IMG/VR virus record: IMGVR_UViG_3300000956_000001
Location: 1 to 64,000 of that record
DNA: 64,000 nucleotides
Direction: 5' to 3' (one strand)
Source of the DNA: a virus
The position numbers and the translations under genes are program-made. Each line of letters opens with the position of its first letter. The first letter of the stretch is position 1. The notes beneath the pieces were generated by a model, which made no database searches, was not told the DNA's origin, and saw only the letters and a program-made list of their open reading frames with translations. Below are positions 14,503 through 62,913 of this stretch, one piece after another.

Positions 14503-15020
14503 CAGATCATGTTCCCCAGGTCTGGAATGTCTTCGATTTCTGCGCGGGCGGCTACCCAGTTGTGACCAAGAATTGCAGGCTCGATGCCTCCGGATGTATC
14601 TGGACGATGTACGATGATGATGCCAGGGTTAACGTTACGATCCTGCTCCACGATCGTGGACTTGATTGTCGTTACCAGTCGGTCATTCTGGAACAGGATA
14701 CCCTGCAGGGCGTCCTCAAGTCCCTTCTGAAGATTCGTCGCGTCGGCAGCATGACGCCTACTGGTCCGTCCAGTGGGCGTCTGATACTCCTCCAGCTTGC
14801 GCCAGAAGTAGAATTCCAACTCTGAGCAACCATCGTGCAGTACTGTCATGTACTCTTTGCACAAGTAATCGCGCACGGCTCGTTGGTAGTCAGCAAGCGA
14901 CGAGTTCTCGCCTACATACGGTACGTGTTTGCCGCCGCGAACCGTTGTTCCAAGTGGACCGATAGCCCAGGGTTGCGGATTGATACCTGTGATTCTGTAG
15001 ATCATCTCACCTGTAAGCAA
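14502..15020 (-). CDS. rusA: RusA-like Holliday junction resolvase
   Basis: DATNLQKGLEDALQGILFQNDRLV matches the RusA D..N..K...D.L....D.. signature. Confidence 0.8.
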   Translation of the reverse strand: MLTGEMIYRITGINPQPWAIGPLGTTVRGGKHVPYVGENSSLADYQRAVRDYLCKEYMTVLHDGCSELEFYFWRKLEEYQTPTGRTSRRHAADATNLQKGLEDALQGILFQNDRLVTTIKSTIVEQDRNVNPGIIIVHRPDTSGGIEPAILGHNWVAARAEIEDIPDLGNMI

Positions 15021-17052: not shown

Positions 17053-17922
17053 TTAGAGCTTGAAGATCTTGTACGGACCGTTGTCGAAGGTGACGCCAAC
17101 CGGTCCGCCGTTCGTGGTCAACGGGAAGTTCGAGCTGGTAATCGGTGCGAGCGCGCGATTACCAGCTGCGAGAGCGTTCGCCAGGGCCGACACCGTCAGC
17201 GTGCGATCACCAGCGTTTGCGCCTGCGGTAAGTGTTGCTGTGCGACCATTGCTGAATGCCAGTACGGCACCGTTAGGGATCGCGTTGGTCAGCGGATCGA
17301 CGGCGACGCTGGTTGCGGAACCAGCCGCAGCAGCAGCAACGGTCACGATGTGCTTGCCGGTCAGGTATCCGATGATGCGTGAGGTTGACGGAGTGCCGGT
17401 GTCCTTGTAGATGACAATCAGTCGCACGACGTTGCCACCAGCTACAACAGACCATGACGGGTCAGCAGCGTCAGCGACACCAGCAACAACTGTCTTGGTA
17501 CCCAGTGTCTGGTCGGTACCGACGATGCAGGCGCTCACGTCATCGTACATGTCGCTGACGGTCGAGGGTCCGTAGTTGACGGCATAGCCGCCGGAAGTGT
17601 ATGCGCTGATGCCGACAACGTTGGTACCCAGAACGGGATCGGTCAGTTCGAACGTGTTCGCTGCCTGGTTCGCGATCTTCCAGAGACCGTTCGCGGCAGT
17701 GTTGCCGCCGACGTTGTCGATGTAGACGAGGTCACCGTTTGCAAAGCCATGCGCCGTGCAGGTGACTACGATCGGAGTCGCAGCGGTTGCGCCAGTGATT
17801 GCCTTGATCGCAGTGTCAGTGGTTGCGACCGGATCGAGCAGGCCGATCTTAATGGTGTCCGTGTCCCAGTCGATAGATCCATCCAGGAACCCCTGGCGAC
17901 CAAGCTCTGTCAGTCCGTTCAT
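17053..17922 (-). CDS. Virion-like structural protein
   Basis: IDWDTDTIK N-terminus; ITGATAATPIVVTCTAHGFANGDLVYI (FCCH-like beta domain seen in phage structural proteins); ends in IFKL. Confidence 0.6.
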   Translation of the reverse strand: MNGLTELGRQGFLDGSIDWDTDTIKIGLLDPVATTDTAIKAITGATAATPIVVTCTAHGFANGDLVYIDNVGGNTAANGLWKIANQAANTFELTDPVLGTNVVGISAYTSGGYAVNYGPSTVSDMYDDVSACIVGTDQTLGTKTVVAGVADAADPSWSVVAGGNVVRLIVIYKDTGTPSTSRIIGYLTGKHIVTVAAAAAGSATSVAVDPLTNAIPNGAVLAFSNGRTATLTAGANAGDRTLTVSALANALAAGNRALAPITSSNFPLTTNGGPVGVTFDNGPYKIFKL

Positions 17923-19978: not shown

Positions 19979-20660
19979 CGAGACCAGGCAGTGGATCCAT
20001 ACTACTCACGTCCTCGGGAATGCTGCAGTTGAGGAAATTCTCGTAGTAAAAGGTCAGCTCGCGAAGTGTCGCCATCATGTCGTCGCGCACGCGGTGTTTG
20101 GCGTTGGCCTTCTGGAACTGAGGCATGAGCTGCATCTCTGCGAACAGGCCGGGGTTAGCCTGACGACAGACTTCCTTGATGGCGCTGACGTCAGCGTTGC
20201 GGTAGGTGAAGAATTCGTGCGCAACGCTGAGATCGGCAGCCCAGAAGTCCCTGTCGAATGCGACCGACGATCCGGTCATAGGAAACTTTCCAGCTTCAAG
20301 ACCGCAGATCTCTGTGAGCCATTCCCAGATAGCCAGAGACACGAAGGTGGGACTGTAGTCTCCGTACTGCTTTCCGAGTCGGTGATGAATGAACTCGTAA
20401 CCTTCGGGAAGTGCGCGAACCTCGGCGGCAAGTCCGTTCTCGACATGCATCTTTCGCACGAGATCAGAAGCGGTTGCGAAGGCGTCCTCCCAGCCCTCTG
20501 GGGCAACCAGCCACGAATTGACCGCCAGAGGGCTCAGCCACCGGTCGACGATCGTGACGCCGACTTCCAGAATGGCGTCCGTAGTCCAGTCGAGACCTGT
20601 GGTTTCGGTGTCGACGACAACATATGCCGCCTTGCTCGGGTCAATCAGATGTGTTGTCAC
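19971..20660 (-). CDS. DEDDh 3'-5' exonuclease, oligoribonuclease-like
   Basis: VVVDTETTGLD, GSSVAFDRDF, HRVRDD. Likely GTG start at 20660. Confidence 0.85.
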   Translation of the reverse strand: MTTHLIDPSKAAYVVVDTETTGLDWTTDAILEVGVTIVDRWLSPLAVNSWLVAPEGWEDAFATASDLVRKMHVENGLAAEVRALPEGYEFIHHRLGKQYGDYSPTFVSLAIWEWLTEICGLEAGKFPMTGSSVAFDRDFWAADLSVAHEFFTYRNADVSAIKEVCRQANPGLFAEMQLMPQFQKANAKHRVRDDMMATLRELTFYYENFLNCSIPEDVSSMDPLPGLDV

Positions 20661-20889
20661 GGGGTTTGTTTGGTCCTTCCGCAAGGTATCGGTTGACTTC
20701 TGCCTTGGAGATTCGCCAGCCCTTACCTGGCTTGATTGCAGCGATGCGTCCGTCTCGACACATCCGCTGCACAGTGGCCTGCTGAAGACCGAGGATAAAT
20801 CCAACTTCCACGGGTTCGTAGAGTCTATCCTTGCCCGATAGCAGGTCTTGCGGGTCAGGTCCGGTGCTGGCAGTCACAACTTGCTCCAC
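20641..20889 (-). CDS. Excisionase-like HTH DNA-binding protein
   Basis: LYEPVEVGFILGL...TVQRMCRDGRIAAIKPGKGWRIS. Confidence 0.75.
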   Translation of the reverse strand: MEQVVTASTGPDPQDLLSGKDRLYEPVEVGFILGLQQATVQRMCRDGRIAAIKPGKGWRISKAEVNRYLAEGPNKPRDNTSD

Positions 20890-27003: not shown

Positions 27004-27172
27004 GTGTTGCCCACTCGCGAATGTTCTCGTAGTTCAGAGCATCCATTACAATGCTGTGATGAGCGCCCGCTCGGTCCGTGCACGTAGGCGAGAAGGCGCA
27101 CGCACCAGCCTTTTTATCGTCAGGGCTGTGCATGACTGGCGGTAGCAGCTTGAATGTCACGATGAAATGCAT
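26720..27172 (-). CDS. Hypothetical protein
   Basis: TAATG overlap with the recombinase stop. Confidence 0.5.
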   Translation of the reverse strand: MHFIVTFKLLPPVMHSPDDKKAGACAFSPTCTDRAGAHHSIVMDALNYENIREWATHEGMHVTRIEEIFFIKSIPGEYDVPVSGGQLGVDGREADGGSTRLSSAHADTTFDLSPATGPLVEYPITGICSGFNAAREVEEDRARRRVSSGD

Positions 27173-28014
27173 TACTTGTTTCCACTCTCGCGCATCTCAT
27201 CGAACGTCATGCCGATGTAGCGCATTGTCGTGTTGACGTCAGCGTGACCGAGCCATCGCTGAAGAAGTGTGATGTCTCTTGTTTGCTTGTACAGAACCGT
27301 CGCGAATGTCGCGCGCAGGTCATGACTAGCAACTGGACGAGATATGCCAGCCCTGACGCCCAGCTCCGTAATGAATGATCGCGCACCACGGTCACTGTAG
27401 TTAATCAGTCGCTCACGTCCGGAAATCTGAACGGCGATGATCTGCGGTGCCAGGAACGTGAAAGCTCGATTCGTCACCGGGATGACTCGAAGCTTCTGCC
27501 CCTTACCCCACACGCTGATCGATAGTCCCGAAAGATCGATGTGACTATCTTTCAGCTCTAGAGCTTCATGCATGCGAAGTCCCTCGCACCCGAGTAATGC
27601 GACAAGTGCTCGCTTCTCGTCAGTGTCGCATGCAGCGAGCATCTTGTTGAGATCATGTTCGCGATTCGGAAGGGGGTGCGCCTCTGCGGTTGGAACGGCT
27701 GGAAGCTTGTAACGCTTCAGGACGTCGCCCTCAAACCCCAGGTATTCCTTCAATGCCAGGATGCTCGCCTTGCGTCGACGAATCGTCATCGGAGCCAACT
27801 CGATATCCGTCGACAGCTTCAGCCATGTCGCTGCCAGCCTCGGCAGGTCCTCCACCTGAAAGGACTTGACCCCCAATTCCTTGAAGAGCATCTTGATATC
27901 GCTGGAGTACGCCTTCACTGTGTGCACCGACCGGGAGAACTGAACGTCGGACAACCAAAGTCGGAAGCCCTCGATATCCTCGGTCGTCAGAGTCGTCACC
28001 TGTGGCATAGTCAT
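27172..28014 (-). CDS. Tyrosine recombinase (XerC/D-like, 280 aa)
   Basis: Catalytic set GLR, GKG.K.R, HDLR, LGH, RY. SAM-like N-terminal domain (TVKAYSSDIK); no arm-binding extension. Confidence 0.92.
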   Translation of the reverse strand: MTMPQVTTLTTEDIEGFRLWLSDVQFSRSVHTVKAYSSDIKMLFKELGVKSFQVEDLPRLAATWLKLSTDIELAPMTIRRRKASILALKEYLGFEGDVLKRYKLPAVPTAEAHPLPNREHDLNKMLAACDTDEKRALVALLGCEGLRMHEALELKDSHIDLSGLSISVWGKGQKLRVIPVTNRAFTFLAPQIIAVQISGRERLINYSDRGARSFITELGVRAGISRPVASHDLRATFATVLYKQTRDITLLQRWLGHADVNTTMRYIGMTFDEMRESGNK

Positions 28015-39969: not shown

Positions 39970-40768
39970 TTACGCCCGAGTCAGGACGCCAGCCGCGAGA
40001 GCGGCCTGGGTCCAGGATGCCCACTCGACCAGCATGGCGTCGGCGAACTCTGCCTCAGAGCATGCCAGCAGGTCACGCTGGTACGTGCTGCGCTGGGTGT
40101 TGATGTTGTCGAGCAGACGCTTCGGGCCGGTGTATCGGTCCACGTAGTCGAACAGCTCGACGTGCCTGACGACGATCGGCTTGATGAAGATCGGGTAGCG
40201 CGACGTCTCCCAGAACAGGTCGAGCGTCTCGTCGTCGTACCGACGGTTCGAGTTGTCGCCGTCCGACAGGATCGCAGCGTGGATCGGCGCCTTGGCCTTC
40301 TTGCCGAGCTTGATGAGCGCCTTGAGTGGCTGACGCAGGTCCGTGCCGCCCATCCGTCGACGACCACCGAGTCGAAGCTCCCGCTCGATGATGCCTCGAT
40401 AGTTGCTCACGGAGGCTGTGATGCCCTCGTAGATATCCCCATCGAAGCCGATGACCGGAACCTGTCCGTCAACATCGATCTGGAGAACGAATCCCAGGTA
40501 GCGCTCCGCCATACGCTGGACGGCGCCCGAACTGTACTCGTTGGCCATTGAGCCGGAGTGGTCGACGATCAGAACGCCGTCCGCCTTGACGCCATTCTGG
40601 CCAGCCTTCTTGAGGCTGATGCCAGCGGCGCGCGCGTTCTTGGCGAGACCCTCGTGACCGGTCTTCTCCAGTGCCTCCAAGTCGATTGCCGACTCGTCGA
40701 CGTTGGGCCGGTAAATCAGCGGTGCCGAGTGGGCGACCGTGATCTTGTTGCCTGGCATGCCGAACATG
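39970..40768 (-). CDS. vWA-domain protein (TerF-associated type)
   Basis: LIVDHSGSM, GGTDL, ILSDG; very high GC3; GAGGAGG RBS before MFGMP. Confidence 0.75.
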
Positions 40769-40932
40769 TTCCTCCTCGTTGGGTATGGGGAACGCGATAG
40801 CCGAGACACCTCCTGAAACAGGCGGCCTCTTCCAGTCTCGACTACCGCCGCACTGGGCCTAATCCCTCCCAGTACAGACTCTAGTCACTGCTGCGTCAGC
40901 TTGACGGCCCAGGTTTCTCACGCCTGGTGTGA

Positions 40933-46734: not shown

Positions 46735-47850
46735 CTAGGCGACCTTGCGAGCGCCGCCCACGCCGCCATCCTGGGCGGGCACGATGCCTTCCAGGTTGAA
46801 CTTGGGGCTGGACAGGGCGGCCGTGATGGCACCCGAGCTGGCGTTGCCGTCCGGGTACTCTTCCGTGCGAGTCTTCGCAATCTGGCCCGTCTTCAAGAAG
46901 GTGCCGACCGGCACGCTCGCGAAGACCTCCTGGATGTGCGACTTCACGCTGCGCTTCGGACCCGTGTAGGCGTCACGCGTACCCGTGCTGGTGGCGGTAC
47001 CGGCTGCCTTCGGCGCACGAACCTTCGCGACGTTGCCGCCACGACCGTGCGCGATCTTGGCCGCGTTCTTCACGACGACGTGGACCTCGGGCGCCTTCGG
47101 CTCGCGGGCCGCGTACGCCTCGTCCGTCTCGTCGGTCTTCTTGCCCTCGGTCGCCCAGGAGTTGTGGTCGACCTCGTACGCCTGCCACGCCTTGACCTCG
47201 GGGGCCAGCGACTTCGACAGCTCCTGGACCTTCGCGGTCCAGTCGGGGCTCACGCCCTCGCCCGGGGTCAGCATGGAAACCGCCAGGTAGAACGCGGAGA
47301 CCTTCTCGACGTGCGCCTGCGTCGGATCGACCGGAGGCTTGACGACCTGCTCGCGCTGGGCGGTTGTGGTCTTGACCTCGGCACCGAGATCCATGTAGAC
47401 CTTCGCCTTGGAGGCGTTCAGCTCCTTGGTGAGCGAGGTCTTCATCCCGGTTTCGAGGAAGTCGCGGGCCTTCTTCTTCAAGCCCGGGGTCGGCAGGGCC
47501 GCGTAGGCCAGCTTGACCGGTGCGACGTTCACCGTGGGGACGTCGCCGGTCGTCTGGTCGCGCGCCTCGACGGCCTCGTTGACCTTCGCCTCGAACTCGG
47601 CGAACAGCTTCGCGTGCTCCGCCTCGGTGGCAGCCTGCTCGGCGGCCAGCTCCTCGGGGGTCTTCGTCGGGCCGGTCGCGGTGTTGGCGTCCGGCGTCTC
47701 GGGGGCCTGCGGGGTTTCCAGGTTTTCGACCGGAGTCGCAACCTGCTCGGGCTGCGACTCGGTGGCCATGCCCGGAAGGCTGGACATCTGCTCGGTGGGC
47801 TGCGTGACCTCTTCGGCCGAAGCCGTGGTCACGTCATCCTGGTCACGCAT
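46735..47850 (-). CDS. Probably abundant early protein with a C-terminal putative DNA-binding domain
   Basis: 371 aa, extreme GC3, GAGGAG RBS, own promoter; C-terminal domain resembles ORF 51335-51595. Confidence 0.7.
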   Translation of the reverse strand: MRDQDDVTTASAEEVTQPTEQMSSLPGMATESQPEQVATPVENLETPQAPETPDANTATGPTKTPEELAAEQAATEAEHAKLFAEFEAKVNEAVEARDQTTGDVPTVNVAPVKLAYAALPTPGLKKKARDFLETGMKTSLTKELNASKAKVYMDLGAEVKTTTAQREQVVKPPVDPTQAHVEKVSAFYLAVSMLTPGEGVSPDWTAKVQELSKSLAPEVKAWQAYEVDHNSWATEGKKTDETDEAYAAREPKAPEVHVVVKNAAKIAHGRGGNVAKVRAPKAAGTATSTGTRDAYTGPKRSVKSHIQEVFASVPVGTFLKTGQIAKTRTEEYPDGNASSGAITAALSSPKFNLEGIVPAQDGGVGGARKVA

Positions 47851-48822: not shown

Positions 48823-49045
48823 CGTGTCCTAGTGGATAGATTGCCCGTTGGCACATATGGCATCTGACCTGCTGTTATGCTAGACCAGGCGCCGGTAATG
48901 TCCGAATTGCCAGATTTTACCGTCTTGCCCGACTAAGAGGGCTTTGCGTAGTGAACGCCACCTTTGAGTGAGAGTGCCTCACTTGTGACGACATGCACGT
49001 AGATGCCCTGTGCAGGTGCAATTGCCTCTTTGCAGTGTATACAAG

Positions 49046-49447
49046 TCATTTGTCCGTTTTGTCCTTCTTGCGGGTCTTTCTGGGCTTAGTTGACTTTGCG
49101 TGCTGTAGCCGCTGCAATGTGTTCTTTTCGATCTCAATCATCATCAAAGCGGCATTTCGGACTTCCGGGGTAAAGGGTCCAGTGTACCCCATAGTGAACA
49201 GAACGGCTTTTGCAGCCATATCGTTCTGTTCGCGGCGAGAGAGAGACTTCTGCACCGGAGCCGAACTTTTGCGCTCAGACTTCCCATCCTTGGATGCCTC
49301 ACCACGGATGATGACAACTCGGCTACAGGGGAGCGAATCGTCACCATCCGTGGTAAGGCGGACAACGATACCAATTGGGGCAGAGCTAGACTCGCGCACC
49401 AATTCGTAGTATCTCGCCTTATCAGGATCAAAGAGCATATCGCGCAC
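49046..49447 (-). CDS. Hypothetical protein
   Basis: 133 aa, basic C-terminus; first gene downstream of the stem array. Confidence 0.55.
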   Translation of the reverse strand: MRDMLFDPDKARYYELVRESSSAPIGIVVRLTTDGDDSLPCSRVVIIRGEASKDGKSERKSSAPVQKSLSRREQNDMAAKAVLFTMGYTGPFTPEVRNAALMMIEIEKNTLQRLQHAKSTKPRKTRKKDKTDK

Positions 49448-49534
49448 CTTTCAGGTTTTACCAGTCATGTGGCACTAACAGGGTAAAACATTACAGTTGC
49501 ACCATATCAGGGCATATGACTCAAAAAGGACATA

Positions 49535-49804
49535 CTACCTGGTAACTACTTCCATGACCTCAGTCTGGCGAGCGATCTCAAATTCGGCAATGTTGCGCTT
49601 TCCAGGCGTACCGGGCGAAGCGGACATACACTGCGTAACGGCTTCAAGTGCATCCTCGTACGTATCCCAGGAACACTTCCGATTCCAGTACAATTCCCAC
49701 CAGATGCCACTTCCGTCCCCATCCAGGTAATTCACCCGGAAGCAGACATCAGGTTGATACTTGCGCAAAACGCGCAACTCGGGCTGTTCAGACATCTCGG
49801 ACAT
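49535..49804 (-). CDS. Hypothetical protein (cassette A)
   Basis: 89 aa, AAGGTGGG RBS. Confidence 0.6.
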   Translation of the reverse strand: MSEMSEQPELRVLRKYQPDVCFRVNYLDGDGSGIWWELYWNRKCSWDTYEDALEAVTQCMSASPGTPGKRNIAEFEIARQTEVMEVVTR

Positions 49805-50099
49805 AACCCACCTTCCCAGACTTTCGGGGTAGACGAGACATATGCCCCCATAAGGTACAACTGTGATGTTAATCTGGAATCGTCATAGATGCACCTGATG
49901 CGCGCATTCCGGAGGTTACAGACTAAACGGACATACTACTTAGATGCGTAGTAACCAGTCACGATGACTGCAAATACGACCCAAGCGACGATGAAGCCAA
50001 ACCAGAACTTCTGGCCATTTGTCATCTTGTCACCACAAACAACACGAAGGCCGCCCATAGTACCATCAGTACAAAGGCGGCAAAAAGAAGCTTAATCAC

Positions 50100-50642
50100 T
50101 CATTCCTCCTCAAAACGGACAACCTTCGCGCCGCCGTCATCTGTCTCCATTACCGTAGGAAGCAACAGATGGCCACGAACCGTAATGCTCTGGTCATCCT
50201 TGCCCTTGTTGCGCAACTGCCACTTTTTGTTAGCAACGCGACAAGAAGGGCACCTGCACCCATACATGGAGTAAGACAGGTAATTGCCGTGACTCGTCCA
50301 ACTCGGTTCGAAACGGATAAACCAGTCCCAGCACCAGGTTTCGATGCATTTCGGGCAGATACTCTGGTAATCCGCATCGGCGTCATGAGCACACGTAGTG
50401 CACACATCTGTCGAGACGATGACATTACGCCCGTAAGGCGCGATAATGCGCCTTCTGGGCGCATTCACCGAAGGGGGACGAACGTCCTCATTCAGTGCAA
50501 TGTGCACGATCTGCCCAACTTGGACATTACGCCAGTCAATCTGGCGATTCACTCCGCCGATGACAAACTGGTCGTACTCGCCCTTCACGTCAGATTTCGG
50601 GGCAATCGTCTGGTATTGAACAGATGACGATCCTTTTCCCAT
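50100..50642 (-). CDS. Zn-binding hypothetical protein (cassette B)
   Basis: CTTC, CPKC and HG..SY..YGCRCPSC motif; AAAGGTG RBS. Confidence 0.6.
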   Translation of the reverse strand: MGKGSSSVQYQTIAPKSDVKGEYDQFVIGGVNRQIDWRNVQVGQIVHIALNEDVRPPSVNAPRRRIIAPYGRNVIVSTDVCTTCAHDADADYQSICPKCIETWCWDWFIRFEPSWTSHGNYLSYSMYGCRCPSCRVANKKWQLRNKGKDDQSITVRGHLLLPTVMETDDGGAKVVRFEEE

Positions 50643-50753
50643 TTTACACCTTTACCCTTTATCAGGCATCAGGTGCATTTATGACGATTCCAGATTATTA
50701 GTGCCAACTACACTGAACCCACTATTAGGGGCAGAACGGACATCGCAGACATG

Positions 50754-51299
50754 TCAGTCTTTCGTGTCGTACCAGACATGACCGTGCTCATCTACGTGAG
50801 CTGGCTCATCCAGGACATGCTGTGCATCAGCGTTGCATTGCGTCTCATATGGTGACATTGCACCACACAGTGACGTTTGGGGCGCTTCGACACATTTGGA
50901 CACGGGAGTCATGCGGTAGCTTACGTGCATCAATACGAGGATTTCGCACGCATTGCGCAACTGCCGCAGAAGGGGCAACTGTTCCGAAACGTAAAACCGT
51001 CGCAGAGTGTCATCATCGTCCTCATTCATGCGATACGACACATAGTCGACACCGCTCTCATTTGTGACGATTCGGACATACCCGACGATGTGCTCCATCT
51101 GGTTTTGGTCCGACTCGTGCCAGATGCACGTATCAGACCAAACGCCCGCCCATGGGCCCTCTTGTACGGTTACGATCGGCTTTGCCCAGATTGCACCGTA
51201 ACGCGTCATTTGACGGACTGCGGTATCTTTGTCGTCAATGACCCTGTTGTGCGAGTTGTGCGAGTTGTCCATCTCTCCACCTTTTTCAGGTTTTAGCAC
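50754..51299 (-). CDS. Hypothetical protein (cassette C; start probably 51272)
   Basis: AAAGGTGGAG precedes MDNSH. Confidence 0.55.
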   Translation of the reverse strand: MLKPEKGGEMDNSHNSHNRVIDDKDTAVRQMTRYGAIWAKPIVTVQEGPWAGVWSDTCIWHESDQNQMEHIVGYVRIVTNESGVDYVSYRMNEDDDDTLRRFYVSEQLPLLRQLRNACEILVLMHVSYRMTPVSKCVEAPQTSLCGAMSPYETQCNADAQHVLDEPAHVDEHGHVWYDTKD

Positions 51300-51334
51300 T
51301 GGATGCCCTACTAAGGGACGAGACGCGCGGTTGC

Positions 51335-51595
51335 CTACGGTTGTACCTTTCGTCCGCCCTGTGGCGATTTGTCGTCGTCTGCTACCTTGTGTCCGTATTG
51401 GATCACAAAGTCGTAGATGTCCGATTTAATCAGCGTGCGGCTAAGCAGTAGGTGCGCCAGAATTGCACCTCTTCCGGGCCTTTTGTCCTGATCAGGGTAT
51501 TCTGGGGTGATTGCGTTACAAATCTGCGCAACCGTCATGAAGTGCCCGTATTCGTGACCTTTGAACGCATTGAGAATGTGGTCCCGGATTGTCAT
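51335..51595 (-). CDS. Small putative DNA-binding protein (cassette C)
   Basis: Similar to the C-terminus of ORF 46735-47850. Confidence 0.6.
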   Translation of the reverse strand: MTIRDHILNAFKGHEYGHFMTVAQICNAITPEYPDQDKRPGRGAILAHLLLSRTLIKSDIYDFVIQYGHKVADDDKSPQGGRKVQP

Positions 51596-52029
51596 CAGAT
51601 GTGCGGTCCGTCCAGATGGTCGAAGATGTCCGATTTGAGGTAAACCGCCATCATCAGGACCGATTGGAGTAGTCCACCCACGTTCTGGCCGTGATCGTCC
51701 ATTGATCCCTGTTCGGCACCACTGTCCACGATGAGGCTAATTGCCTGCTCTGCGGCCTTTTCGTAGTTAAGGTGCATGTCTCCGGTTTGGACCAATTCGC
51801 CCAGTTCGTTCGGATCAAGAAGATTGTCCGGAAGAGGCTGATTGTCCAGATCGCGCCGAAGGACCAACAACGCACCATATGCGGTGAAAATGGCCTTTTC
51901 GATGTCATCGCGGAGAAGCTCACGTTCTGATGCGGTAAGACGCGAGTTGCGTGTGTTTCCCATTTTGCCCACCTTGGCGACTAAGTGTGAAATGCGCACC
52001 TCGTCCCATAGTAGGGCATCCAGTACCAT
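51595..52029 (-). CDS. Hypothetical protein (cassette C; start probably 51963)
   Basis: AAGGTGGGCAAAATG start motif. Confidence 0.55.
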   Translation of the reverse strand: MVLDALLWDEVRISHLVAKVGKMGNTRNSRLTASERELLRDDIEKAIFTAYGALLVLRRDLDNQPLPDNLLDPNELGELVQTGDMHLNYEKAAEQAISLIVDSGAEQGSMDDHGQNVGGLLQSVLMMAVYLKSDIFDHLDGPHI

Positions 52030-52173
52030 TCTTGACAGAATATGACGTTACCTTACATATTTTGACATATGCCAGTTATGTCCGATTCTGCCCCTAATGG
52101 TGGGTTCAGTGTGATTCATACGGCTTGTTAGTAACATCCCAAATCGTCTGCTATGCACCTGATGTCTGATTTG

Positions 52174-52371
52174 CTAAACAGTGACCGGTTTGCCCGTTTT
52201 CAGGTCAATCATCTCGGTTTGTCGTGTTAGAGGTGCAACTGTCCGCTTCGGGGGATTCTTCCCATTTACCCGCTGCGTGAATGTCTGACCGCATGTGTCA
52301 CACATTCTGCGGATATGGGTACCTGTGCCCGGTAGGTGAGTCACCTCCCTATTGCAGTGCATGCGTACCAT
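52174..52371 (-). CDS. Small Zn-ribbon protein (cassette D)
   Basis: HC...CDTC. Confidence 0.5.
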   Translation of the reverse strand: MVRMHCNREVTHLPGTGTHIRRMCDTCGQTFTQRVNGKNPPKRTVAPLTRQTEMIDLKTGKPVTV

Positions 52372-52417
52372 TCTCGCCTACCCGTGCTAGTTGGTGCCGT
52401 TTGTCCAGTTTGTGACG

Positions 52418-52612
52418 TTACTTGGTGATACCTTTCGGTATCCACCGAGGTGTGGTGCAAACGTAGCATTCGCCACACTTGTACCACGTGTCCGAGTATC
52501 CGCAATCCTGGTCGAAATCCCACCATCCAGGCACTTCGCCCAGTTTGATGGACTTGTCCGTTTTGCGGTTCCTGACAACGTTTCTGATAGCATTGCGCAG
52601 ATTGATACCCAT
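52418..52612 (-). CDS. Hypothetical protein (cassette D)
   Basis: AAAGGTGG RBS before MGINL; Cys cluster. Confidence 0.5.
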   Translation of the reverse strand: MGINLRNAIRNVVRNRKTDKSIKLGEVPGWWDFDQDCGYSDTWYKCGECYVCTTPRWIPKGITK

Positions 52613-52750
52613 TGTACTGATTCCACCTTTTGTCCGTGTTGCCCGTTTTAAGGGGTTTGTGAACACCAGGTGCATAGCAGACGATTTGGGATGTTGCAGA
52701 CTGAATCACCATTTACGTGCCAGTTGTCGCACATTATGCTGGTTTGTCCG

Positions 52751-52963
52751 TTAGTTCACAATCTGGATAACTAAGGACGTTATCCAGAGAATGACTAGAA
52801 CTACCCAGATTGCTAGGGCTATCCCGGTGTGTGGCTTCATGTCCGTTTTGGTCCTTATGTTACCGAGTGTACAGTTTGCGACCCTTGCGCACCAGGTACA
52901 CATACATACCGTTAGCCCGCTGAAAACGCAAATGCGTGACTTTGGGTCCGATGAGGTATCCAC
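52751..52963 (-). CDS. Small membrane protein (cassette E; start uncertain)
   Basis: C-terminal TM helix. Confidence 0.4.
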   Translation of the reverse strand: MDTSSDPKSRICVFSGLTVCMCTWCARVANCTLGNIRTKTDMKPHTGIALAIWVVLVILWITSLVIQIVN

Positions 52964-53030
52964 CCCAGTTGGTCCATTGGCACGTCATGCACTCATTGTC
53001 TGCGATGTCCGAAATGCTAGACATGTGCGA

Positions 53031-53480
53031 TCAGAGCGCCTTGCACACGTTCTGGGCGAACCATTCCCATGCGTCCCGTTGCCAGGCGACAGGTCCGAAG
53101 TGGTACGTCCAGTGCGGAAGGTACGGTTCGGCCATCTCTGCCACGATTCCGGTAAAGCTGTGCGCGTATGCACCGATACCGATCAGATCGCCCGGCATGT
53201 CGATAATGCCCTTGGATGCCCGATATGAGGGGTTGTATTCCGAGACGACCCAAAAGACCAGTGCGGTATTGATTGCCCGCATTGCACCTCTTGGGTCGGT
53301 TGCGTGGAAGAGCTGGAATGCCCGTCCCATGCGACCTTCGCACAGTGCGTGATACATTGCGGCATTTTCCCGCATTGTCGCACCTGAGTGCATTTCCAGG
53401 ATTACGCCTTTTGGCTGGTTCGTCCCGTTGGCACCGTTCGCGAAGGTTTCCTTGATTGTCACAGTTGCCATGATTCCCAC
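53031..53480 (-). CDS. Hypothetical protein (cassette E)
   Basis: ~146 aa, AAAGGTGGG RBS. Confidence 0.6.
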   Translation of the reverse strand: MGIMATVTIKETFANGANGTNQPKGVILEMHSGATMRENAAMYHALCEGRMGRAFQLFHATDPRGAMRAINTALVFWVVSEYNPSYRASKGIIDMPGDLIGIGAYAHSFTGIVAEMAEPYLPHWTYHFGPVAWQRDAWEWFAQNVCKAL

Positions 53481-53600
53481 CTTTTGTGTGTCTTGCCCGT
53501 TTTAAGGACAACTGGCACATAAAAGGTGATTCAGTCTGCTATGGTTCAAACGCCCTACTAGGTGCCTGATGAGCTGAATGTGCTGGATGTCTGGGTTGTG

Positions 53601-53987
53601 CTAGTCCATCCAGAGTGCGAAGTTTCCGTCGATAACGCCATAAACAGCCTGGTGTGTACGGTTCTGTCCGTATTTTTCCAGTTTGTCGTATTCGAGCGTT
53701 ACGACCCAGTCTGAGTCGTCACAGTGCCTTAGGCACCCATAACCGCACTTATCATCGTGAATGTGCCGTCCGTTACCATCTGTGACGTTTAGCACCCTTA
53801 CGGACGTGATGTCGTAAAGGGGCCAGTTGTCACGAAAGTACTGAACGGGCCACATGTCCGAATACTCCGGATCGCACCGAAGTTCCAGACTGTACACATT
53901 GCGCTGAATGAGGTCTTTGCGGTAATGTTCCAGAATGTCCCCGAAAGGTGCATCTGGCCGCTCCGCCACCGTCCGCGTAGCCTGCAT
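53601..53987 (-). CDS. Hypothetical protein (cassette F)
   Basis: 128 aa. Confidence 0.55.
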   Translation of the reverse strand: MQATRTVAERPDAPFGDILEHYRKDLIQRNVYSLELRCDPEYSDMWPVQYFRDNWPLYDITSVRVLNVTDGNGRHIHDDKCGYGCLRHCDDSDWVVTLEYDKLEKYGQNRTHQAVYGVIDGNFALWMD

Positions 53988-54000
53988 CGGTTTGTCCGTT

Positions 54001-54426
54001 TCAGCCCGTGATGGTGTTGATGTCTTTGTTGCCCATCACGCGCACACTGCGTGCAAGGTCCGAAAGGAGCTGCTTGACCGTTGCGACCGGAAAGCCCTCA
54101 TTGAACGGACTGTCCATCAATTTCCGATTGTCCGAGATGAACCATTCGTCCAACATGACCCCGTAATCCCAGAATGTCCGGTTATACACCGGGCCGCTCG
54201 AAGTGTGACCGTATGTCCGGCCGTAAGGGAACATGTAGAGAGTGTCCCTTTCGTCCGTAATGTACGTGAAGTCGCCGATCGTCACAAAAGCCCGATCGAT
54301 GACAGTTTGCGAGTCACATCCCATTCCAGCCAGATTGGCCGCAATGTAGACTTCGTCCGCATAGTCACGCTTCATGGTGCTAAGTGCGCTATGCGTCGGG
54401 ATGGTCGACTTGTCCATTTTGCCCAC
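54001..54426 (-). CDS. Hypothetical protein (cassette F)
   Basis: AAAGGTGGGCAAAATG start motif. Confidence 0.6.
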   Translation of the reverse strand: MGKMDKSTIPTHSALSTMKRDYADEVYIAANLAGMGCDSQTVIDRAFVTIGDFTYITDERDTLYMFPYGRTYGHTSSGPVYNRTFWDYGVMLDEWFISDNRKLMDSPFNEGFPVATVKQLLSDLARSVRVMGNKDINTITG

Positions 54427-54593
54427 CTTTGATGATGTCTGATCTAGTTTGCCCGATCAGGCACCTAGTAGGGCGTTTGAACCATATAAGCCGTATGGGT
54501 AGTTTCGCGCTGAATGACCTATTAGTGGTCGAATGTCTGTATTACCTGTATTGCGTGTAATGCCAGTTTTTACCGTGATGTCCGACTAAGATG

Positions 54594-54953
54594 CTAGTCG
54601 ACCCCGTTTTCCGATCCGTCGTAAACGCGCGAGATGTCCTGCATGTCCTCAATGGACTCGATGACCTGCATGCGTGCCATGTCGCGCTTGTTGGTTTTGA
54701 TCCATTCCACGCAGTACTTCACGGTTTCGCCGTTGTCGACCCAGATTTCGTAAATGTCCGTTGCGAGTTGGTCTGGGTAGGCGATGGCGATTGCAGCCAA
54801 GAACGCCGCATGTGTCACCTTGTAGGCGTTTCCACCCGCAATGTCACCATCCGGGCTGAATGCCACAGATGAGTGGACCTGTCGCATAAGTTCCGCGAAG
54901 TCGGTCTTGCGCGTTTCGCCACCAATGACCGGAATGTCCAGTTCTCGCATGAT
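54594..54953 (-). CDS. Hypothetical protein (cassette G; start near 54950)
   Basis: AAGGTGGG precedes MRELD. Confidence 0.55.
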   Translation of the reverse strand: MMRELDIPVIGGETRKTDFAELMRQVHSSVAFSPDGDIAGGNAYKVTHAAFLAAIAIAYPDQLATDIYEIWVDNGETVKYCVEWIKTNKRDMARMQVIESIEDMQDISRVYDGSENGVD

Positions 54954-55199
54954 GCCCACCTTGTGTGTGATGTCCGAATTGCCAGTTTTAAGGCATTCGA
55001 CCACTAATGGGCCATTCAGAGCGAAATGCCCCCTAACATTCCAGAATCACCCGCTTCGGCCCGTGTAGAGCCGTAATGTCTGTCCGGTCCCGAAATGAGG
55101 GGACCTAAGCACATTTGGGTGATTCTGGATGCCTTGGGGGTAGTATGCGCTGAATGCCCTATTAGATGACGGTTGGGGTGGGTGAGTCCGTTTTGCCTG

Positions 55200-55754
55200 T
55201 TAGATGCCGTATCCGTTGTCTGTCGCGATTGTGTCGATCAGTTCGACAAAGGTACAAAGCCCTTTTTGGTAGTTCTGGTACATCTTGCGGATTGCGTCAC
55301 CGTTCGGACCGTCTTCGCCCGTTTTGCGCAACCAGAACCCAATTGCCATACGAACAGACCATTCGTACCAATAGTGCGAACTGTGCACATGGTCCGTGAT
55401 GTCCGTCTGTTCCCACAATTCGTACATCTGGTCCCACTCGTTACCTTCGTCCCAGATTTCCTCGGATGAGACGTAAAGGGCCAATGCGCCCGTTTCGCAC
55501 CAGATGTTGTACTGCTCCCGATCCATGACGTTCTGGATGATTTTGCCCTCATCGCCCATATGCCAGACGGTTCGGGTGCCTTTGTCCAGAACGTAACGGA
55601 ATGTCCCCAAGGGACCGTCTTGTCCGATTTGGCCCAGAATGACCAATTCCTTGACGAATGAGACGGGAGGAGTCATAAGACCCGTGTTGCCCATTTTGCC
55701 CACCTTTTCCCTACTAAGTGCGGTTTTGTCTAGATAAGTCCGTTTTGTACTCAT
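55200..55754 (-). CDS. Hypothetical protein (cassette I; internal start MGNTG likely)
   Basis: AAAAGGTGGGCAAAATG motif near 55694-55710. Confidence 0.6.
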   Translation of the reverse strand: MSTKRTYLDKTALSREKVGKMGNTGLMTPPVSFVKELVILGQIGQDGPLGTFRYVLDKGTRTVWHMGDEGKIIQNVMDREQYNIWCETGALALYVSSEEIWDEGNEWDQMYELWEQTDITDHVHSSHYWYEWSVRMAIGFWLRKTGEDGPNGDAIRKMYQNYQKGLCTFVELIDTIATDNGYGI

Positions 55755-55845
55755 CTACCCTAACCGTCACCTAATGAGGCATTCAGTGCATACCTACCGG
55801 TTCGTCATGATGTGCCCTATTAGGGCCTGGATGTCTGTTTTCGTG

Positions 55846-56268
55846 TCAGTTGTACTTTTCGTCCGTGACGTCGCAAATCAGCGGGTTCTCACCGTTCGTC
55901 CCGATTGCCCATACCTGAGCACGATACGGGTCAGTATTGGTGATTACGCGCCCGAATGTCGCATCTGACTTGTATTCGCCATACACGTGGATTTCGGTGA
56001 CTTCGACCGTTTCGCACGTCTTGACCAGTTCTTCCAGTTTGTCCAAATTGACCGCTACGTACCCACATGCCCAGCATGACTGACACACCCGGATAAGTCC
56101 CATTGTGCCGGAAATGACTGGAATGCCCGCGAAGTCCGTTTTGAACTCTTCGAGGCAAAGGCCGCATTCGTCGTGGTAAGTCCGAATTCCGTCTTCCGCG
56201 TTGAAATCGACGGAAGTGACCGTAATGACTGTCATGATAGCTGTGCCCACCTTTAGGTTGTTTTGCAC
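55846..56268 (-). CDS. Hypothetical protein (cassette J)
   Basis: CGLC...CQSC; AAAGGTGGG precedes MTVIT. Confidence 0.55.
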   Translation of the reverse strand: MQNNLKVGTAIMTVITVTSVDFNAEDGIRTYHDECGLCLEEFKTDFAGIPVISGTMGLIRVCQSCWACGYVAVNLDKLEELVKTCETVEVTEIHVYGEYKSDATFGRVITNTDPYRAQVWAIGTNGENPLICDVTDEKYN

Positions 56269-57342
56269 TGGAATGTCGCTGATGTCCGTTTCGGTCTTTC
56301 ACAAGATGGACATTCCAGGCCCTAATGGGGCACACCATGCCGAACCATCGGCAATCTATCCACTATGGACAAGTCAAACAACAATGTGACACAAGCCCCT
56401 AAAGGCGCCTAAACCGCATAATTGCAACTGATACACCCTTATATGGGGCAATTTCAGTCTAAAACGGACATTTCCCAGTTTTACCGTCTTTGCCCACTTT
56501 AGTACCGTCTACCCACCTTTGTCGCGTTTGCCCGTCTTTGGTGCCGTCTTGTCGTACTTGTCGGCTACGCGGCATCTGGGGGCCTTTGCCCGGGATGTCC
56601 GTTTCAGTGCGGTTTAGTTGTCAATCAACCCGTGTCGCCAAGCGTGGCGCCTAGCGGCCGTGCTGTCGTGCGGGTGGTGCCCCACTAGCCTAGCACCCCC
56701 CTAGGCGCAGAGCTCGGACAAATCGGACTTATCACGATAAGAACGCCCGCCTGAAATGTCCGTTCTGGCCCACCTTGCCCCGGTATGACATCGGCCGAAA
56801 GTACGATATAGGTCTGACCGTTCGGGGGATGGACGAACTAATGCGGCATCTCGGCTACGCCCGCCCATATCGGCCCAGAATCGGACATAAAGACGGCCGG
56901 ATAAGTCACGATAAATCGTCTTAAAACGGACAGGGACATATCACCTCAAACCGTCTCAAAACGGGCACGGACATACCGCCTGATAGCACCTCAAAACGGA
57001 CGTGATGGCCCTAACCCCGGTTGACCTGCGAAAACGCCGTAGGATCGCCGTAGGGGCGCTAGAATTGGCCGATGCATACCCGTGCCCCCAACGGGCGTGT
57101 AGGCGCGTCAGCGGCGGCGCTAGGGGCCTTAAATGGCCGATTCCGCTAGCCCCCACGGGTGGGCGGGTAGGTGGGCAAACGGGGGTGTAGTAGGCCAGAT
57201 GGGGCAGTGTCGTGATATATCATCTTAAATCGGACATCTGACGATATAGCGCTGAATGGTACGAGATTGGGGGAAAGAGGGGAATGTCCGATTTATCATC
57301 TTATGTTGTAAGGGGGCGTAAGATAGGGGGCTATGCGCGCAA

Positions 57343-57546
57343 GTCCACTGTGGACAGATGGGATTCATGATCTTCTATATTCAAGATCATGAGAGCGTGA
57401 CGATCTTGAATATAGAAGATCGTAAGAGTGTGACGATCTTCTATATTCAAGATCGTCTATCATCACTGATCTTAGATATTCAAGATCATGAGAGTGTGAC
57501 GATCTTGAATATAGAAGATCATGAATGAGATCTGTCCACTGTGGAC
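57343..57546. repeat. Five GATCTT-N8-AAGATC pseudo-palindromes at an exact 33-bp period, bracketed by GTCCACTGTGGAC
   Basis: Units start at 57369, 57402, 57435, 57468 and 57501; bracketing palindromes at 57343-55 and 57534-46. Confidence 0.92.
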
Positions 57547-58141
57547 TCACGCATAGACGATCATGGATGGCTCAGCTACGGGCAAGTCGGACATTGGGGA
57601 CTTAGGTGGAGATTGTGGGGGATAGGGTGATATTGAGGTGAAAAGTCCTAGGTTTCGGGAATCTGGGGCTATTTGTGTATAAGGGGTATCTGGGGGACAA
57701 GTCGGAAATTACATATCATATGGCATATATCGCTCTTTGTCGTTGATCTGGTAAATGTCCTGGTTTGGGTGAAAATGGCGTTTTCGGTAGACTTGTCGCT
57801 TGTGTGCAGAATGCCCGCATAAAGGCGACATATACGGTATATACGTCATGGGCCTTATATCGGACTTGTGCCCTATGACTGATAATGACCTTTTATTACA
57901 CTTTGTCCGTTTAGGGCCCGGCTAGACTCGGACAAGTCGGACATGTCGCATATAGGCGCTCATCTGGGGCAAATGCGACAGGGGCGGGCAAAGGGTGCCG
58001 ATAACTTATATTATCGGCAGACGGATATATCGTGACAAAGTAGGACAAATCGGACTTGTCCACCATGCCCGAGTTGGGGGGTATGAGAAAATTGTCGGGG
58101 GGGTGCGCGCGAGCGCCCTCTGTGCCCTGTCGCTACTTATG

Positions 58142-62028: not shown

Positions 62029-62913
62029 TCACTTCCAGTAATTCGTAGTAGTAAGCGCGTCGAGAGCGTCGCGCGGCGTCAGAGCCTGTGAACCATAGTT
62101 GGTACGAAAGTCGAGGAAGAACGTCGGATCCAGGGGATTCTTGAGGTTCCGACCCAGAGGGAGCCGACAAAGGTTCCCGAAGCCCTTCTTCTCCAAGGCA
62201 ACCTGCTTGGGGAAGACTTCGACCGTCATGCACTGGTAGCTGAGTTCCTCGTCGATGGTTCCGTTGTGAGCGTTGACGATCTTGTGCTTAAAGAAGTTAT
62301 TGCCCCTACTCGGGGCAAAACAGCCGAGATTGTCCAGAATCATCTGTGCGCCATCGCGAACATCTTTGGCTGGCATGAGGCCAGTGAAGCCGTACACATG
62401 CACACCCTTGTTGCCGGTGTACGTGGCAGCAACTGGGATCTCAAGCTCGCGAGATACTGCGCTGGCGAGCTTCTCGGCAAGCATGCGCATCTGCGTCTTG
62501 AGGTACTGCCGCTGAAGTCCCAGACTCCGATTGAGCCAGTCTTCGCGCGGGTTGGTCGGGAAGAAGTTCTTGTACACGCCGTCCGAGTCACAGTCGACCG
62601 GCAGTACCAGCTGTTCGTACGTCTCTGGATGCTGAGGGTCCGGCTTGTCCAGATCGATATCAAAGACGAACAGCTTGCACTGGTCATCCTTGTTGAGCAG
62701 ATAGTGACCGTAAGTTGCATCACTGTTGATATGCGCCAACAGATGCTTCATACCGAAACCACTGTCCGGAGTGATGACTGCCGTTCCGTCCGCAGTCCGA
62801 TCCACGGCTGGCTGGTATGCGCCATCAGCTCGCTGCGTTGCGCGCACATCAGGTCGTGCGATGAAATTCTTAGCGAACAGCTTTGCGATTTCTTTCTGCT
62901 GATCGATGTCCAT
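62029..62913 (-). CDS. Archaeo-eukaryotic primase (AEP / prim-pol) catalytic protein
   Basis: FVFDIDLD, TGNKGVHVY, VEVFPKQ, GNLCRLPLG. Confidence 0.85.
   Translation of the reverse strand: MDIDQQKEIAKLFAKNFIARPDVRATQRADGAYQPAVDRTADGTAVITPDSGFGMKHLLAHINSDATYGHYLLNKDDQCKLFVFDIDLDKPDPQHPETYEQLVLPVDCDSDGVYKNFFPTNPREDWLNRSLGLQRQYLKTQMRMLAEKLASAVSRELEIPVAATYTGNKGVHVYGFTGLMPAKDVRDGAQMILDNLGCFAPSRGNNFFKHKIVNAHNGTIDEELSYQCMTVEVFPKQVALEKKGFGNLCRLPLGRNLKNPLDPTFFLDFRTNYGSQALTPRDALDALTTTNYWK

What the first reader, a model, noticed from the sequence alone, without database searches (positions are those of the whole stretch)
52115..54499. Second-level pairing: the linkers between cassettes pair with each other, giving a nested multibranch fold
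The few non-zero linkers are not random. TTCATACGGCTTG (52115-52127, C|D linker) is complementary to TAAGCCGTATGGG (54487-54499, F|G linker) with a perfect 10-bp core, closing a junction around D, E and F. Likewise TGGCACTAA (~49470-49478) matches TTAGTGCCA (~50698-50706) around A and B. This suggests one continuous structured scaffold with genes inserted into its loops, which favours a single-strand folding model over independent mobile units.
Basis: partly seen in the sequence, partly recalled or inferred. Interest (0 to 1): 0.85.

Follow-up and report, generated by a model that had tools for sequence, protein, structure and literature searches.

The report
Nested gene-enclosing inverted repeats in phage
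In the small-gene region of an uncultured soil phage, the short sequences left between gene-enclosing inverted repeats pair with each other, so the repeats form a three-level nest; the nest is real and not chance, but the second-level pairs look like worn outer repeats rather than proof of one designed scaffold.

Summary
TTCATACGGCTTG (52115-52127) and TAAGCCGTATGGG (54487-54499) share a perfect 10-bp core around cassettes D, E and F. TGGCACTAA (49470-78) and TTAGTGCCA (50698-706) pair around A and B. Shuffled linkers reach 10 bp in 0.11% of trials, and both pairs together in 0 of 20,000.

The nest goes further than reported. An outer 21-bp repeat (48825-45/56350-71) closes the whole 7.5-kb array. 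Seven second-level frames tile its interior with 1-5 nt gaps. Cassette C holds an inner frame. Folds of up to 4.4 kb keep the DEF helix on both strands.

- The A/B helix has a rival partner (48847-54).
- Both short helices carry motifs of the arm family and look like eroded outer frames.
- Mismatches show no strand bias.
- A roughly 90-98%-identical relative in another soil sample lacks cassette A almost arm to arm and has swapped genes, so cassettes do behave as units.

My best reading is long-range helices in the leftward early mRNA, built up frame within frame. A DNA-level role is not excluded.

This scan has noted similar arrays in three other uncultured phages.

The parts
48825..48845 (.). 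Outer frame, left arm (TGTCC + TAGTGGATAGATTGCC)
   Evidence: Pairs with 56350-56371: 16 perfect bp, one bulged base, then 5 bp. Carries the family core CTAGTGG.
56350..56371 (.). Outer frame, right arm
   Evidence: Lies 3 nt after the right arm of cassette I.
48847..48854 (.). GTTGGCAC, the alternative left partner of the B|C linker. It would close the X block plus A plus B.
   Evidence: Perfect 8 bp with 50701-50708. Lies 1 nt from the outer left arm, and its partner lies 1 nt from the left arm of C. Chosen over the A/B helix in the scaffold fold.
49470..49478 (.). Left arm of the A/B closing helix (TGGCACTAA)
   Evidence: Perfect 9 bp with 50698-50706. Resembles the right arm of G (GACCACTAA) with matched changes on both sides.
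50698..50709 (.). B|C linker TTAGTGCCAACT, the right arm of the A/B (or X/A/B) closing helix
49487..49870 (-). Cassette A: arms 49487-49522 / 49835-49870, gene 49535-49804
   Evidence: 36-nt arms with 30 matches. Bases 49492-49873 are absent in the relative from run X12.
49870..50697 (-). Cassette B: arms 49870-49901 / 50666-50697, genes 49936-50058 and 50100-50642
   Evidence: 32-nt arms with 31 matches. The 180-aa protein has metagenomic homologues at 58-72% identity.
50710..52112 (-). Cassette C: outer arms 50710-50736 / 52086-52112 enclose gene 50754-51299 and inner frame C' (51298-51322 / 52000-52024, two genes)
   Evidence: Arms match 26/27 and 24/25. This is a full-length example of a frame inside a frame.
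52114..52127 (.). Left arm of the D/E/F closing helix (perfect core CATACGGCTT, 52117-52126)
54487..54500 (.). Right arm of the D/E/F closing helix (perfect core AAGCCGTATG, 54488-54497). Overlaps the weak outer extension of the left arm of G (54494-54502).
52133..52695 (-). Cassette D: arms 52133-52165 / 52663-52695, two small genes
   Evidence: Arms match 32/33
52696..53539 (-). Cassette E: arms 52696-52728 / 53507-53539
   Evidence: Arms match 31/33. No gap to D or to F.
53540..54486 (-). Cassette F: arms 53540-53570 / 54456-54486, two genes
   Evidence: Arms match 31/31. The k=31 contigs break exactly at these arms, which is an assembly effect.
54503..55026 (-). Cassette G: arms 54503-54535 / 54994-55026
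   Evidence: Arms match 30/33
55028..55141 (-). Frame 'hp': arms 55028-55052 / 55117-55141 around a 64-nt structured insert with no gene
   Evidence: Folds at -59 to -61 kcal/mol, z-score -5.9 (+ strand) and -7.1 (- strand)
55143..55793 (-). Cassette H: arms 55143-55187 / 55749-55793
   Evidence: Arms match 38/45
55799..56346 (-). Cassette I: arms 55799-55831 / 56314-56346
   Evidence: Arms match 30/33. In the X12 relative the left arm and the shared 3' end of the gene are followed by different sequence after 55875.

Best explanation
The two linker pairings are genuine members of the same inverted-repeat ('frame') family as the cassette arms. The array is a three-level nest:
- one outer frame closes the whole 7.5 kb;
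- seven abutting second-level frames fill it (X/A/B or A/B, C, D/E/F, G, the gene-less 'hp', H, I);
- third-level frames sit inside three of them (A and B; C'; D, E and F).

I infer that the frames act as long-range helices in the leftward polycistronic early mRNA. Each helix loops out one to three cistrons and presents a 25-45 bp duplex at every gene junction. This would work like the RNase III processing stalks around 16S and 23S rRNA, or the RNase III sites between phage T7 early genes. I also infer that the nest arises because new frame-plus-gene modules are added, lost or refilled inside the loops of older frames.

The short second-level helices (8-10 perfect bp, against 25-45 for first-level arms) are most likely outer frames partly overwritten by later arrivals. 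They can still close multi-cassette domains in the predicted fold, but nothing shows that they are selected on their own.

Shown: the sequences, their non-randomness, the tiling, the predicted folds, cassette-wise turnover, and conservation of the arms in a relative. Inferred: the RNA level, any processing, and the build-up history.
For: Non-random, strictly nested complementarity. Second-level frames tile the outer frame with gaps of 1-5 nt. Cassette C shows frame-in-frame with full-length arms.

The A/B helix carries the family core (CACTAA/TTAGTG) and differs from G by matched changes on both sides (GACCAC/GTGGTC against TGGCAC/GTGCCA).

The D/E/F helix is in the minimum-energy fold of the scaffold (pair probability 0.98) and of the full 2.4-kb and 4.36-kb stretches.

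All arms lie between genes. All genes are on the minus strand with AAGGTGG-type ribosome sites. Leaders are as short as 23 nt, so the genes are probably co-transcribed. No excess of promoters or terminators.

In the relative from run X12, 116 nt covering the H right arm and the I left arm show no listed difference. The adjacent 133 nt show 14 differences. Cassette contents are deleted or swapped.

Distant relatives carry structured elements at the same gene junctions. ReqiDocB7 and Perlina have local palindromes. IMG/VR contig L006 has 12 copies of a local hairpin in which 8 of 21 pairs show compensatory changes and G.U pairs are frequent on the gene-sense strand. GordTnk2 has a 29-nt repeat around five small genes.

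The gene-less frame 'hp' shows that a frame can exist without a gene.
Against: No RNA data exist for this phage.

Mismatches in the stems show no bias towards G.U on the mRNA strand. On the + strand there are 10-11 G.T and 8-10 A.C mismatches. The mismatch conserved in four stems is C.A in the mRNA sense. Summed duplex energies are equal: -603.5 (+ strand) against -595.9 kcal/mol (- strand).

Helices of 8-10 bp that close 1.2-2.4 kb loops are weak kinetically and are shorter than the ~20 bp RNase III normally needs.

The A/B helix competes with another partner.

No covariation data exist for the second-level helices.
Confidence: 0.5

Rival explanations
1. The roughly 1-kb set of arms and linkers is one designed scaffold (RNA or single-stranded DNA), with genes placed in its loops. 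The second-level helices are selected parts that hold groups of cassettes together, for example to order processing or to compact the transcript.
For: Strict nesting, tiling with near-zero linkers, and closure of the whole array by an outer frame. The D/E/F helix is predicted with probability 0.98 and survives in full-length folds. The joint chance of both linker pairs is below 1 in 20,000. On the + strand the D/E/F helix extends to 14 pairs through G.T pairs.
Against: Cassettes turn over one at a time in a close relative. The A/B helix is ambiguous. The second-level helices are three to four times shorter than first-level arms and leave core remnants unpaired on one side. No Rfam family matches. 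No conservation or covariation is available.
Confidence: 0.2
2. The repeats act at the DNA level. Each frame is the pair of ends of a recombining or mobile gene module, and the nest records successive insertions into earlier modules. Hairpin-stimulated slippage, homologous recombination or a phage recombinase would move or flip modules. Any RNA pairing is incidental.
For: Mismatch types and duplex energies are strand-symmetric. Cassette A is absent almost arm to arm in a relative, with only 2 nt of microhomology. A 6-bp direct repeat TGGCAC flanks the 615-bp X block. The phage encodes a tyrosine recombinase (27172-28014), RusA (14502-15020) and a PD-(D/E)XK nuclease (10566-11729).
Against: The arms are private to each cassette, so no single protein could recognise all the ends. 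No cassette encodes a transposase or recombinase. No target-site duplications flank the cassettes. Other recombination breakpoints in the relative fall at gene borders, not at arms. The 5.6-kb contig of run X1 runs through cassettes A to E in one orientation, so inverted forms are not common. The hairpins in L006 covary with G.U pairs on the sense strand.
Confidence: 0.25
3. The linker complementarity is chance, or a by-product of short motifs shared by arm termini (TATG/CATA, TTAGTG/CACTAA), and has no meaning of its own.
For: Half of the 10-bp core (CATAC/GTATG) matches termini seen in cassette H and in the extended left arm of G. The A/B helix is mostly the family core.
Against: Shuffles give 0.11% for a 10-bp match and 0 of 20,000 for both pairs. 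Beyond the shared 4-6 nt, further matched bases are needed, and they sit exactly at nested, abutting positions.
Confidence: 0.05

Closest known systems
Leader-trailer processing stalks around 16S and 23S rRNA in bacterial rrn operons, cut by RNase III (my own knowledge; also the comparison chosen in scan notes e1-5927076 and e1-6035836)
   Same: Sequences before and after a long product pair over 0.3-3 kb into a duplex of 20 bp or more that loops the product out. Several such stalks lie in one precursor.
   Different: Here the looped-out products are protein genes. There are ten or more stalks that abut without spacers. The stalks are nested in three levels. No cleavage or transcript data exist.
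RNase III sites between the early genes of phage T7 (my own knowledge)
   Same: Structured duplexes at every junction of a phage early polycistronic unit.
   Different: The T7 sites are local hairpins. Here the two halves of each duplex lie on opposite sides of a gene. The local form is what relatives ReqiDocB7, Perlina and L006 have.
PeSL (promoter-early stem-loop) cassettes of T4-type phages, Arbiol et al. 2010 (my own knowledge; named in scan notes e1-5944503 and e1-5885239)
   Same: Repeated structured junction elements flank small, fast-turning-over early genes and mark where genes are swapped.
   Different: PeSLs are near-identical direct repeats with a promoter. Here the flanks are inverted, private to each cassette and nested, and no promoter consensus was found.
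Integron gene cassettes with attC sites
   Same: Abutting promoterless cassettes in one orientation. Imperfect inverted repeats that are cassette-specific apart from a conserved core. Folding of a single strand is proposed for both.
   Different: An attC is a local hairpin at the 3' end of a cassette, not a pair of arms around the gene. There is no adjacent integron integrase or attI, and no GTTRRRY core at the borders.
Non-coding, repeat-rich region of DocB7-like phages (GordTnk2, Gmala1, GordDuk1, GTE7, ReqiDocB7), PMC4563357
   Same: The same phage group by helicase similarity and gene order. The 56.4-58.8 kb region here corresponds to that region and lies directly upstream of the array.
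   Different: That paper describes a gene-free region with multiple inverted repeats. It does not describe gene-enclosing or nested repeats.

Membership tests
RNase III-type long-range processing stalks | Complementary sequences on both sides of the product form a continuous duplex of about 20 bp or more | tested here: met
   First-level arms are 25-45 nt and 83-100% complementary. The outer frame has 21 bp.
RNase III-type long-range processing stalks | The same holds for the second-level (linker) helices | tested here: not met
   Only 8-10 perfect bp. The D/E/F helix reaches at most 14 pairs with G.U, and only on the + strand.
RNase III-type long-range processing stalks | Both arms lie in one primary transcript | not testable with these tools
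   No RNA run holds this DNA. One strand, short leaders and no terminator excess fit co-transcription.
RNase III-type long-range processing stalks | Cleavage within the duplex by RNase III | not testable with these tools
   Needs end mapping or an in vitro assay.
Integron cassette array | Integron integrase gene and attI next to the array | tested here: not met
   The only tyrosine recombinase found is at 27172-28014, about 21 kb away. Only 20 further proteins were scanned against Pfam. The cassette proteins give no hits apart from one sub-threshold match.
Integron cassette array | A local attC hairpin at the 3' end of each cassette, with R and L boxes (GTTRRRY core at the crossover) | tested here: not met
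   The arms enclose the genes. The borders read AACAT, TATGG, GTATG, GGTTC and so on. The shared core is CCCTAYTAGGG, inside the arm.
IS / MITE-type elements with terminal inverted repeats | The same terminal repeats in all copies, recognised by one transposase | tested here: not met
   The arms are private to each cassette. No transposase domain was found in the cassettes.
IS / MITE-type elements with terminal inverted repeats | Direct target-site duplications flank each element | tested here: not met
   Arms abut with gaps of 0-5 nt and no flanking direct repeats. Only the X block is flanked by TGGCAC.
Invertible-segment systems (shufflon, Hin/Gin type) | Common, cross-compatible recombination sites in inverted orientation, and orientation variants in the population | tested here: not met
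   The arms are private. The 5.6-kb contig of run X1 runs through cassettes A to E in one orientation. Rare variants cannot be excluded.
PeSL-type direct-repeat junction cassettes | Near-identical direct repeats with an early promoter at each junction | tested here: not met
   No long direct-repeat family lies at the junctions. Promoter-like sites are at the shuffle level.
Self-splicing introns or other catalogued RNAs with genes in their loops | A match to a catalogued RNA core | tested here: not met
   No Rfam family reaches its gathering score anywhere in the window.

The most novel reading that the evidence does not exclude
The whole 7.5-kb early region is read as one hierarchically folded molecule. 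An outer helix closes a ring of seven abutting helices, three of which close further rings. The second-level helices would be selected parts that set the order of processing or the co-regulation of cassette groups. This would be a plug-in RNA architecture for phage accessory genes with no described counterpart.
Probability: 0.2. Interest if true: 0.8.

Novelty: new variant of a known kind. Interest (0 to 1): 0.55.

Why it matters
If the frames work as inferred, phages of this group package their fast-evolving early genes (probably host-takeover or anti-defence genes) in standard self-pairing sockets. These sockets can be stacked side by side and inside one another. That would explain how single genes are swapped between relatives without disturbing their neighbours. 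It would also extend the rRNA-type long-range processing stalk to protein-coding operons.

The nesting studied here adds a record of how such arrays grow. It also offers a testable idea: groups of cassettes may be closed into domains.

The specific claim of one designed scaffold is not established. The short second-level helices may be no more than the remains of older frames.

Tried and rejected
- DNA search of the array against cultured phages found no match. tblastn of the cassette B protein found none either.
- Rfam at gathering thresholds found nothing.
- The cassette proteins have no Pfam or PHROG family. The exceptions are one sub-threshold Pfam match and 51335-51595, which resembles the C-terminus of 46735-47850.
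- Six scans of viral contigs gave only a chance hit (L004) and distant relatives without gene-enclosing arrays (L005, L006, L012). The queries were two DNA motifs, the flanking phrog_6708 protein, the helicase, the B-protein alignment and the helicase alignment.
- Two metagenome scans found nothing. Of two genome scans, the first found nothing. The second returned six distant loci, of which only L013 was scanned for repeats, and it has no array.
The contigs that carry the close homologues could therefore not be read. These are the B-protein homologues P0002-P0004 at 58-72% identity and the helicase homologues P0006-P0009 at 63-87%.
- No RNA holder is listed among the sequencing runs.
- Read laying printed only 40 of 174 base differences, so differences inside the two linkers in the X12 relative are unknown.
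- Orchid and Reynauld show no gene-enclosing arrays.
- Literature searches found no description of gene-enclosing or nested repeats in phages.
- Rejected: contig breaks at cassette F as evidence of inversion. They are the expected effect of a perfect 31-bp repeat with k=31.
- Rejected: the idea that the abutting arms are former halves of local palindromes that re-partnered across genes. The shared CTGAA...TTCAG motif sits in the same 5'/3' order as in the L006 hairpin, which fits genes lying inside a hairpin loop. This rests on short motifs only.
Full report
WHAT THE WINDOW IS. The window is bases 1-64000 of an 82,629-bp virus record with terminal repeats from a soil metagenome. By helicase similarity (27-34% identity) and gene order, it belongs with the DocB7-like siphoviruses of Rhodococcus, Gordonia and Tsukamurella. 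The shared order is CobT-like protein, AAA ATPase, a block of small genes, a long non-coding repeat region, then helicase and primase. A paper on these phages notes the long gene-free region with multiple inverted repeats (PMC4563357). Here that region is 56.4-58.8 kb, directly upstream of the array in the direction of transcription.

THE OBSERVATION.
- CATACGGCTT (52117-52126) and AAGCCGTATG (54488-54497) are perfectly complementary.
- On the + strand, three G.T pairs and one A-T pair extend this helix to 14 pairs, 52114-52127 with 54487-54500.
- TGGCACTAA and TTAGTGCCA form a perfect 9 bp.
- In 20,000 shuffles of the eight linkers, a complement of 10 bp or more appeared in 0.11% of trials. 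A 10-bp pair plus a second pair of 9 bp or more never appeared.
- A genome-wide scan finds long-range repeats of this kind only between 48.8 and 56.4 kb.

THE NEST IS LARGER THAN REPORTED.
- An outer frame closes the whole array: 48825-48845 with 56350-56371 (16 bp, one bulged base, 5 bp). The lead came from scan note e1-6083431.
- Inside it, seven frames follow one another with gaps of only 1-5 nt: X/A/B, C, D/E/F, G, the gene-less 'hp', H and I.
- Three of these contain further frames: A and B; C' inside C, both with full-length arms of 25-27 nt; and D, E and F with no gaps between them.
- All genes are on the minus strand with AAGGTGG-type ribosome sites, and all arms lie between genes. Leaders between the 5' arm and the start codon are 23-78 nt, too short for every cassette to have its own promoter.
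- Promoter-like and terminator-like sites are at the shuffle level.

FOLDING.
- The loop-deleted scaffold (1,148 nt) folds into the nested structure on both strands, with RNA or DNA parameters.
- The D/E/F helix has pair probability 0.98.
- The A/B helix has only 0.01-0.12, because GTTGGCAC (48847-48854) competes for the same linker.
- With the genes left in, the 2.4-kb D/E/F domain and a 4.36-kb stretch from C to G still keep 9-10 of the 10 closing pairs and all first-level stems, on both strands.
- Minimum-energy folds of kilobase RNAs are weak evidence. They show only that the nest is thermodynamically coherent.

WHAT THE SECOND-LEVEL HELICES LOOK LIKE. They belong to the same family as the arms.
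- The A/B helix contains the shared core (CACTAA/TTAGTG). It differs from the G arms by matched changes on both sides. On its left it is followed by an unpaired remnant of the core (CAGGGTAA). On its right the B arm abuts it directly.
- In the D/E/F helix, CATAC/GTATG matches the termini of cassette H and of the extended left arm of G. GGCTT/AAGCC resembles the termini of I (GGTTC/GAACC) with matched changes. The remnant GTTAGT stays unpaired on the left.
- TGGCAC occurs twice on the left, at 48849 and 49470, flanking the 615-bp X block.

This pattern fits older outer frames that later modules have partly overwritten. It does not fit helices shaped only for closure. These readings rest on short motifs and are inference.

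COMPARATIVE EVIDENCE. One run from a different soil sample (X12) holds a relative whose laid contigs are 90-98% identical across the array.
- Its contig runs to 49491 and continues with the left arm of B, so 49492-49873, almost exactly cassette A, is absent.
- It skips 51345-51596, a gene inside C'.
- It skips or replaces 53979-54418, the second gene of F.
- It runs on as different sequence after 55875, in gene I.
- It shows no listed difference across the 116 nt that hold the H right arm and the I left arm. The neighbouring 133 nt show 14 differences.

So the arms are under stronger constraint than the genes, and cassettes are lost and refilled one at a time.

Distant relatives carry structured elements at the same junctions, in other forms.
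- ReqiDocB7 and Perlina have local palindromes.
- IMG/VR contig L006 has twelve copies of a local hairpin. Eight of its 21 pairs show compensatory changes, and G.U pairs are frequent on the gene-sense strand.
- GordTnk2 has a 29-nt repeat around five small genes.
- Orchid and Reynauld have none.

RNA OR DNA.
- For RNA: the intergenic placement, a single transcription direction, the sense-strand G.U covariation in L006, and the gene-less 'hp' frame, which folds slightly better in the mRNA sense.
- Against RNA, or at least not for it: the stems here show no strand bias. There are 10-11 G.T against 8-10 A.C mismatches, and the mismatch conserved in four stems is C.A in the mRNA sense. Duplex energies are -603.5 against -595.9 kcal/mol.
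- For a DNA-level role: the loss of cassette A and the recombination genes the phage carries.
- Against a DNA-level role: the arms are private, there is no transposase, no target duplications, and the 5.6-kb contig of run X1 runs through cassettes A to E in one orientation.

I put the RNA reading at about one half.

RELATION TO EARLIER NOTES OF THIS SCAN. Three notes on other uncultured phages describe arrays of abutting, privately framed early genes (e1-5927076, e1-6035836, e1-5901843). They read the arrays as mRNA stems comparable to rRNA processing stalks, and one describes them as sockets for swapping genes. I could not check those genomes. They count here as leads only. None of the lines I saw mentions nesting.

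VERDICT. The nest is real and folds as drawn. It does not argue against modular cassettes, and the second-level helices are more simply explained as worn outer frames.

Noticed in passing
window 49492-49873, 51345-51596, 53979-54418, 55875 onward: A relative from a different soil sample (run X12), whose laid contigs are 90-98% identical across the array, differs by whole units. It lacks cassette A, lacks one gene of C', has the second gene of F skipped or replaced, and has different sequence after the shared 3' end of gene I. The arms next to these changes show no listed differences.
   Followed up: partly
L006:15646-20161 (IMG/VR contig, helicase 28% identical): Twelve copies of a roughly 57-nt hairpin lie before small genes: CTGATTAGCATTGCG, a variable stem, a 7-nt loop, then CGTTGTACTCATCAG. 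Eight of 21 pairs show compensatory changes, and there are many G.U pairs on the gene-sense strand. This is a local counterpart of the gene-enclosing frames.
   Followed up: partly
L009:17767-17795 and 20658-20686 (Gordonia phage GordTnk2, record 67766-67794 / 70657-70685): A 29-nt inverted repeat (26 matches) encloses the five small genes gp91-gp95 next to the non-coding region of a cultured phage. A second direct copy of part of the left arm lies at 17593-17613.
   Followed up: no
window 55028-55141: A frame without a gene. Its 25-nt arms enclose a 64-nt insert that folds on its own (z-score -5.9 on the + strand, -7.1 on the - strand). It may be an empty socket or a small RNA cassette.
   Followed up: partly
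window 48849-48854 and 49470-49475: TGGCAC occurs exactly twice in 48-51 kb. The two copies flank the 615-bp X block, which holds gene 49046-49447 and a 38-codon ORF. This gives the B|C linker two alternative partners and looks like a duplication made when the block arrived.
   Followed up: partly
window 51335-51595 and 46735-47850: The 86-aa product inside C' resembles the C-terminal part of the 371-aa phrog_6708 protein just outside the array (35% identity over 48 residues, E = 2e-6). It is a partial paralogue, and it is absent in the X12 relative.
   Followed up: partly
window 57337-57552: A block of palindromic units with a 33-bp period (GATCTTSWATATWSAAGATC) lies in the non-coding region upstream of the array. 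An exact-pattern scan of viral contigs found no other copy. Contigs of the source sample fold back on the opposite strand here, as expected for such repeats.
   Followed up: partly
window 27172-28014, 14502-15020, 10566-11729, 62029-62913, 39970-40809: The phage encodes a short tyrosine recombinase, a RusA resolvase, a PD-(D/E)XK nuclease, an archaeo-eukaryotic-type primase and a vWA-TerF-like protein. The recombinase has a counterpart annotated as integrase in GordTnk2.
   Followed up: no
window 52032-52061 (+ strand): A promoter-like site, TTGACA-18-CATATT, lies on the strand opposite to the genes, inside the 61-nt spacer between the right arms of C' and C. It would drive antisense transcription into cassette D. 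The count of such sites in the region is at the shuffle level.
   Followed up: no
window 48890-58100: The motif AAAACGGACA/AAAACGGGCA (CGGACA) recurs in leaders and trailers of most cassettes and densely in the non-coding region. It lies too close to start codons to be a standard -35 element.
   Followed up: no
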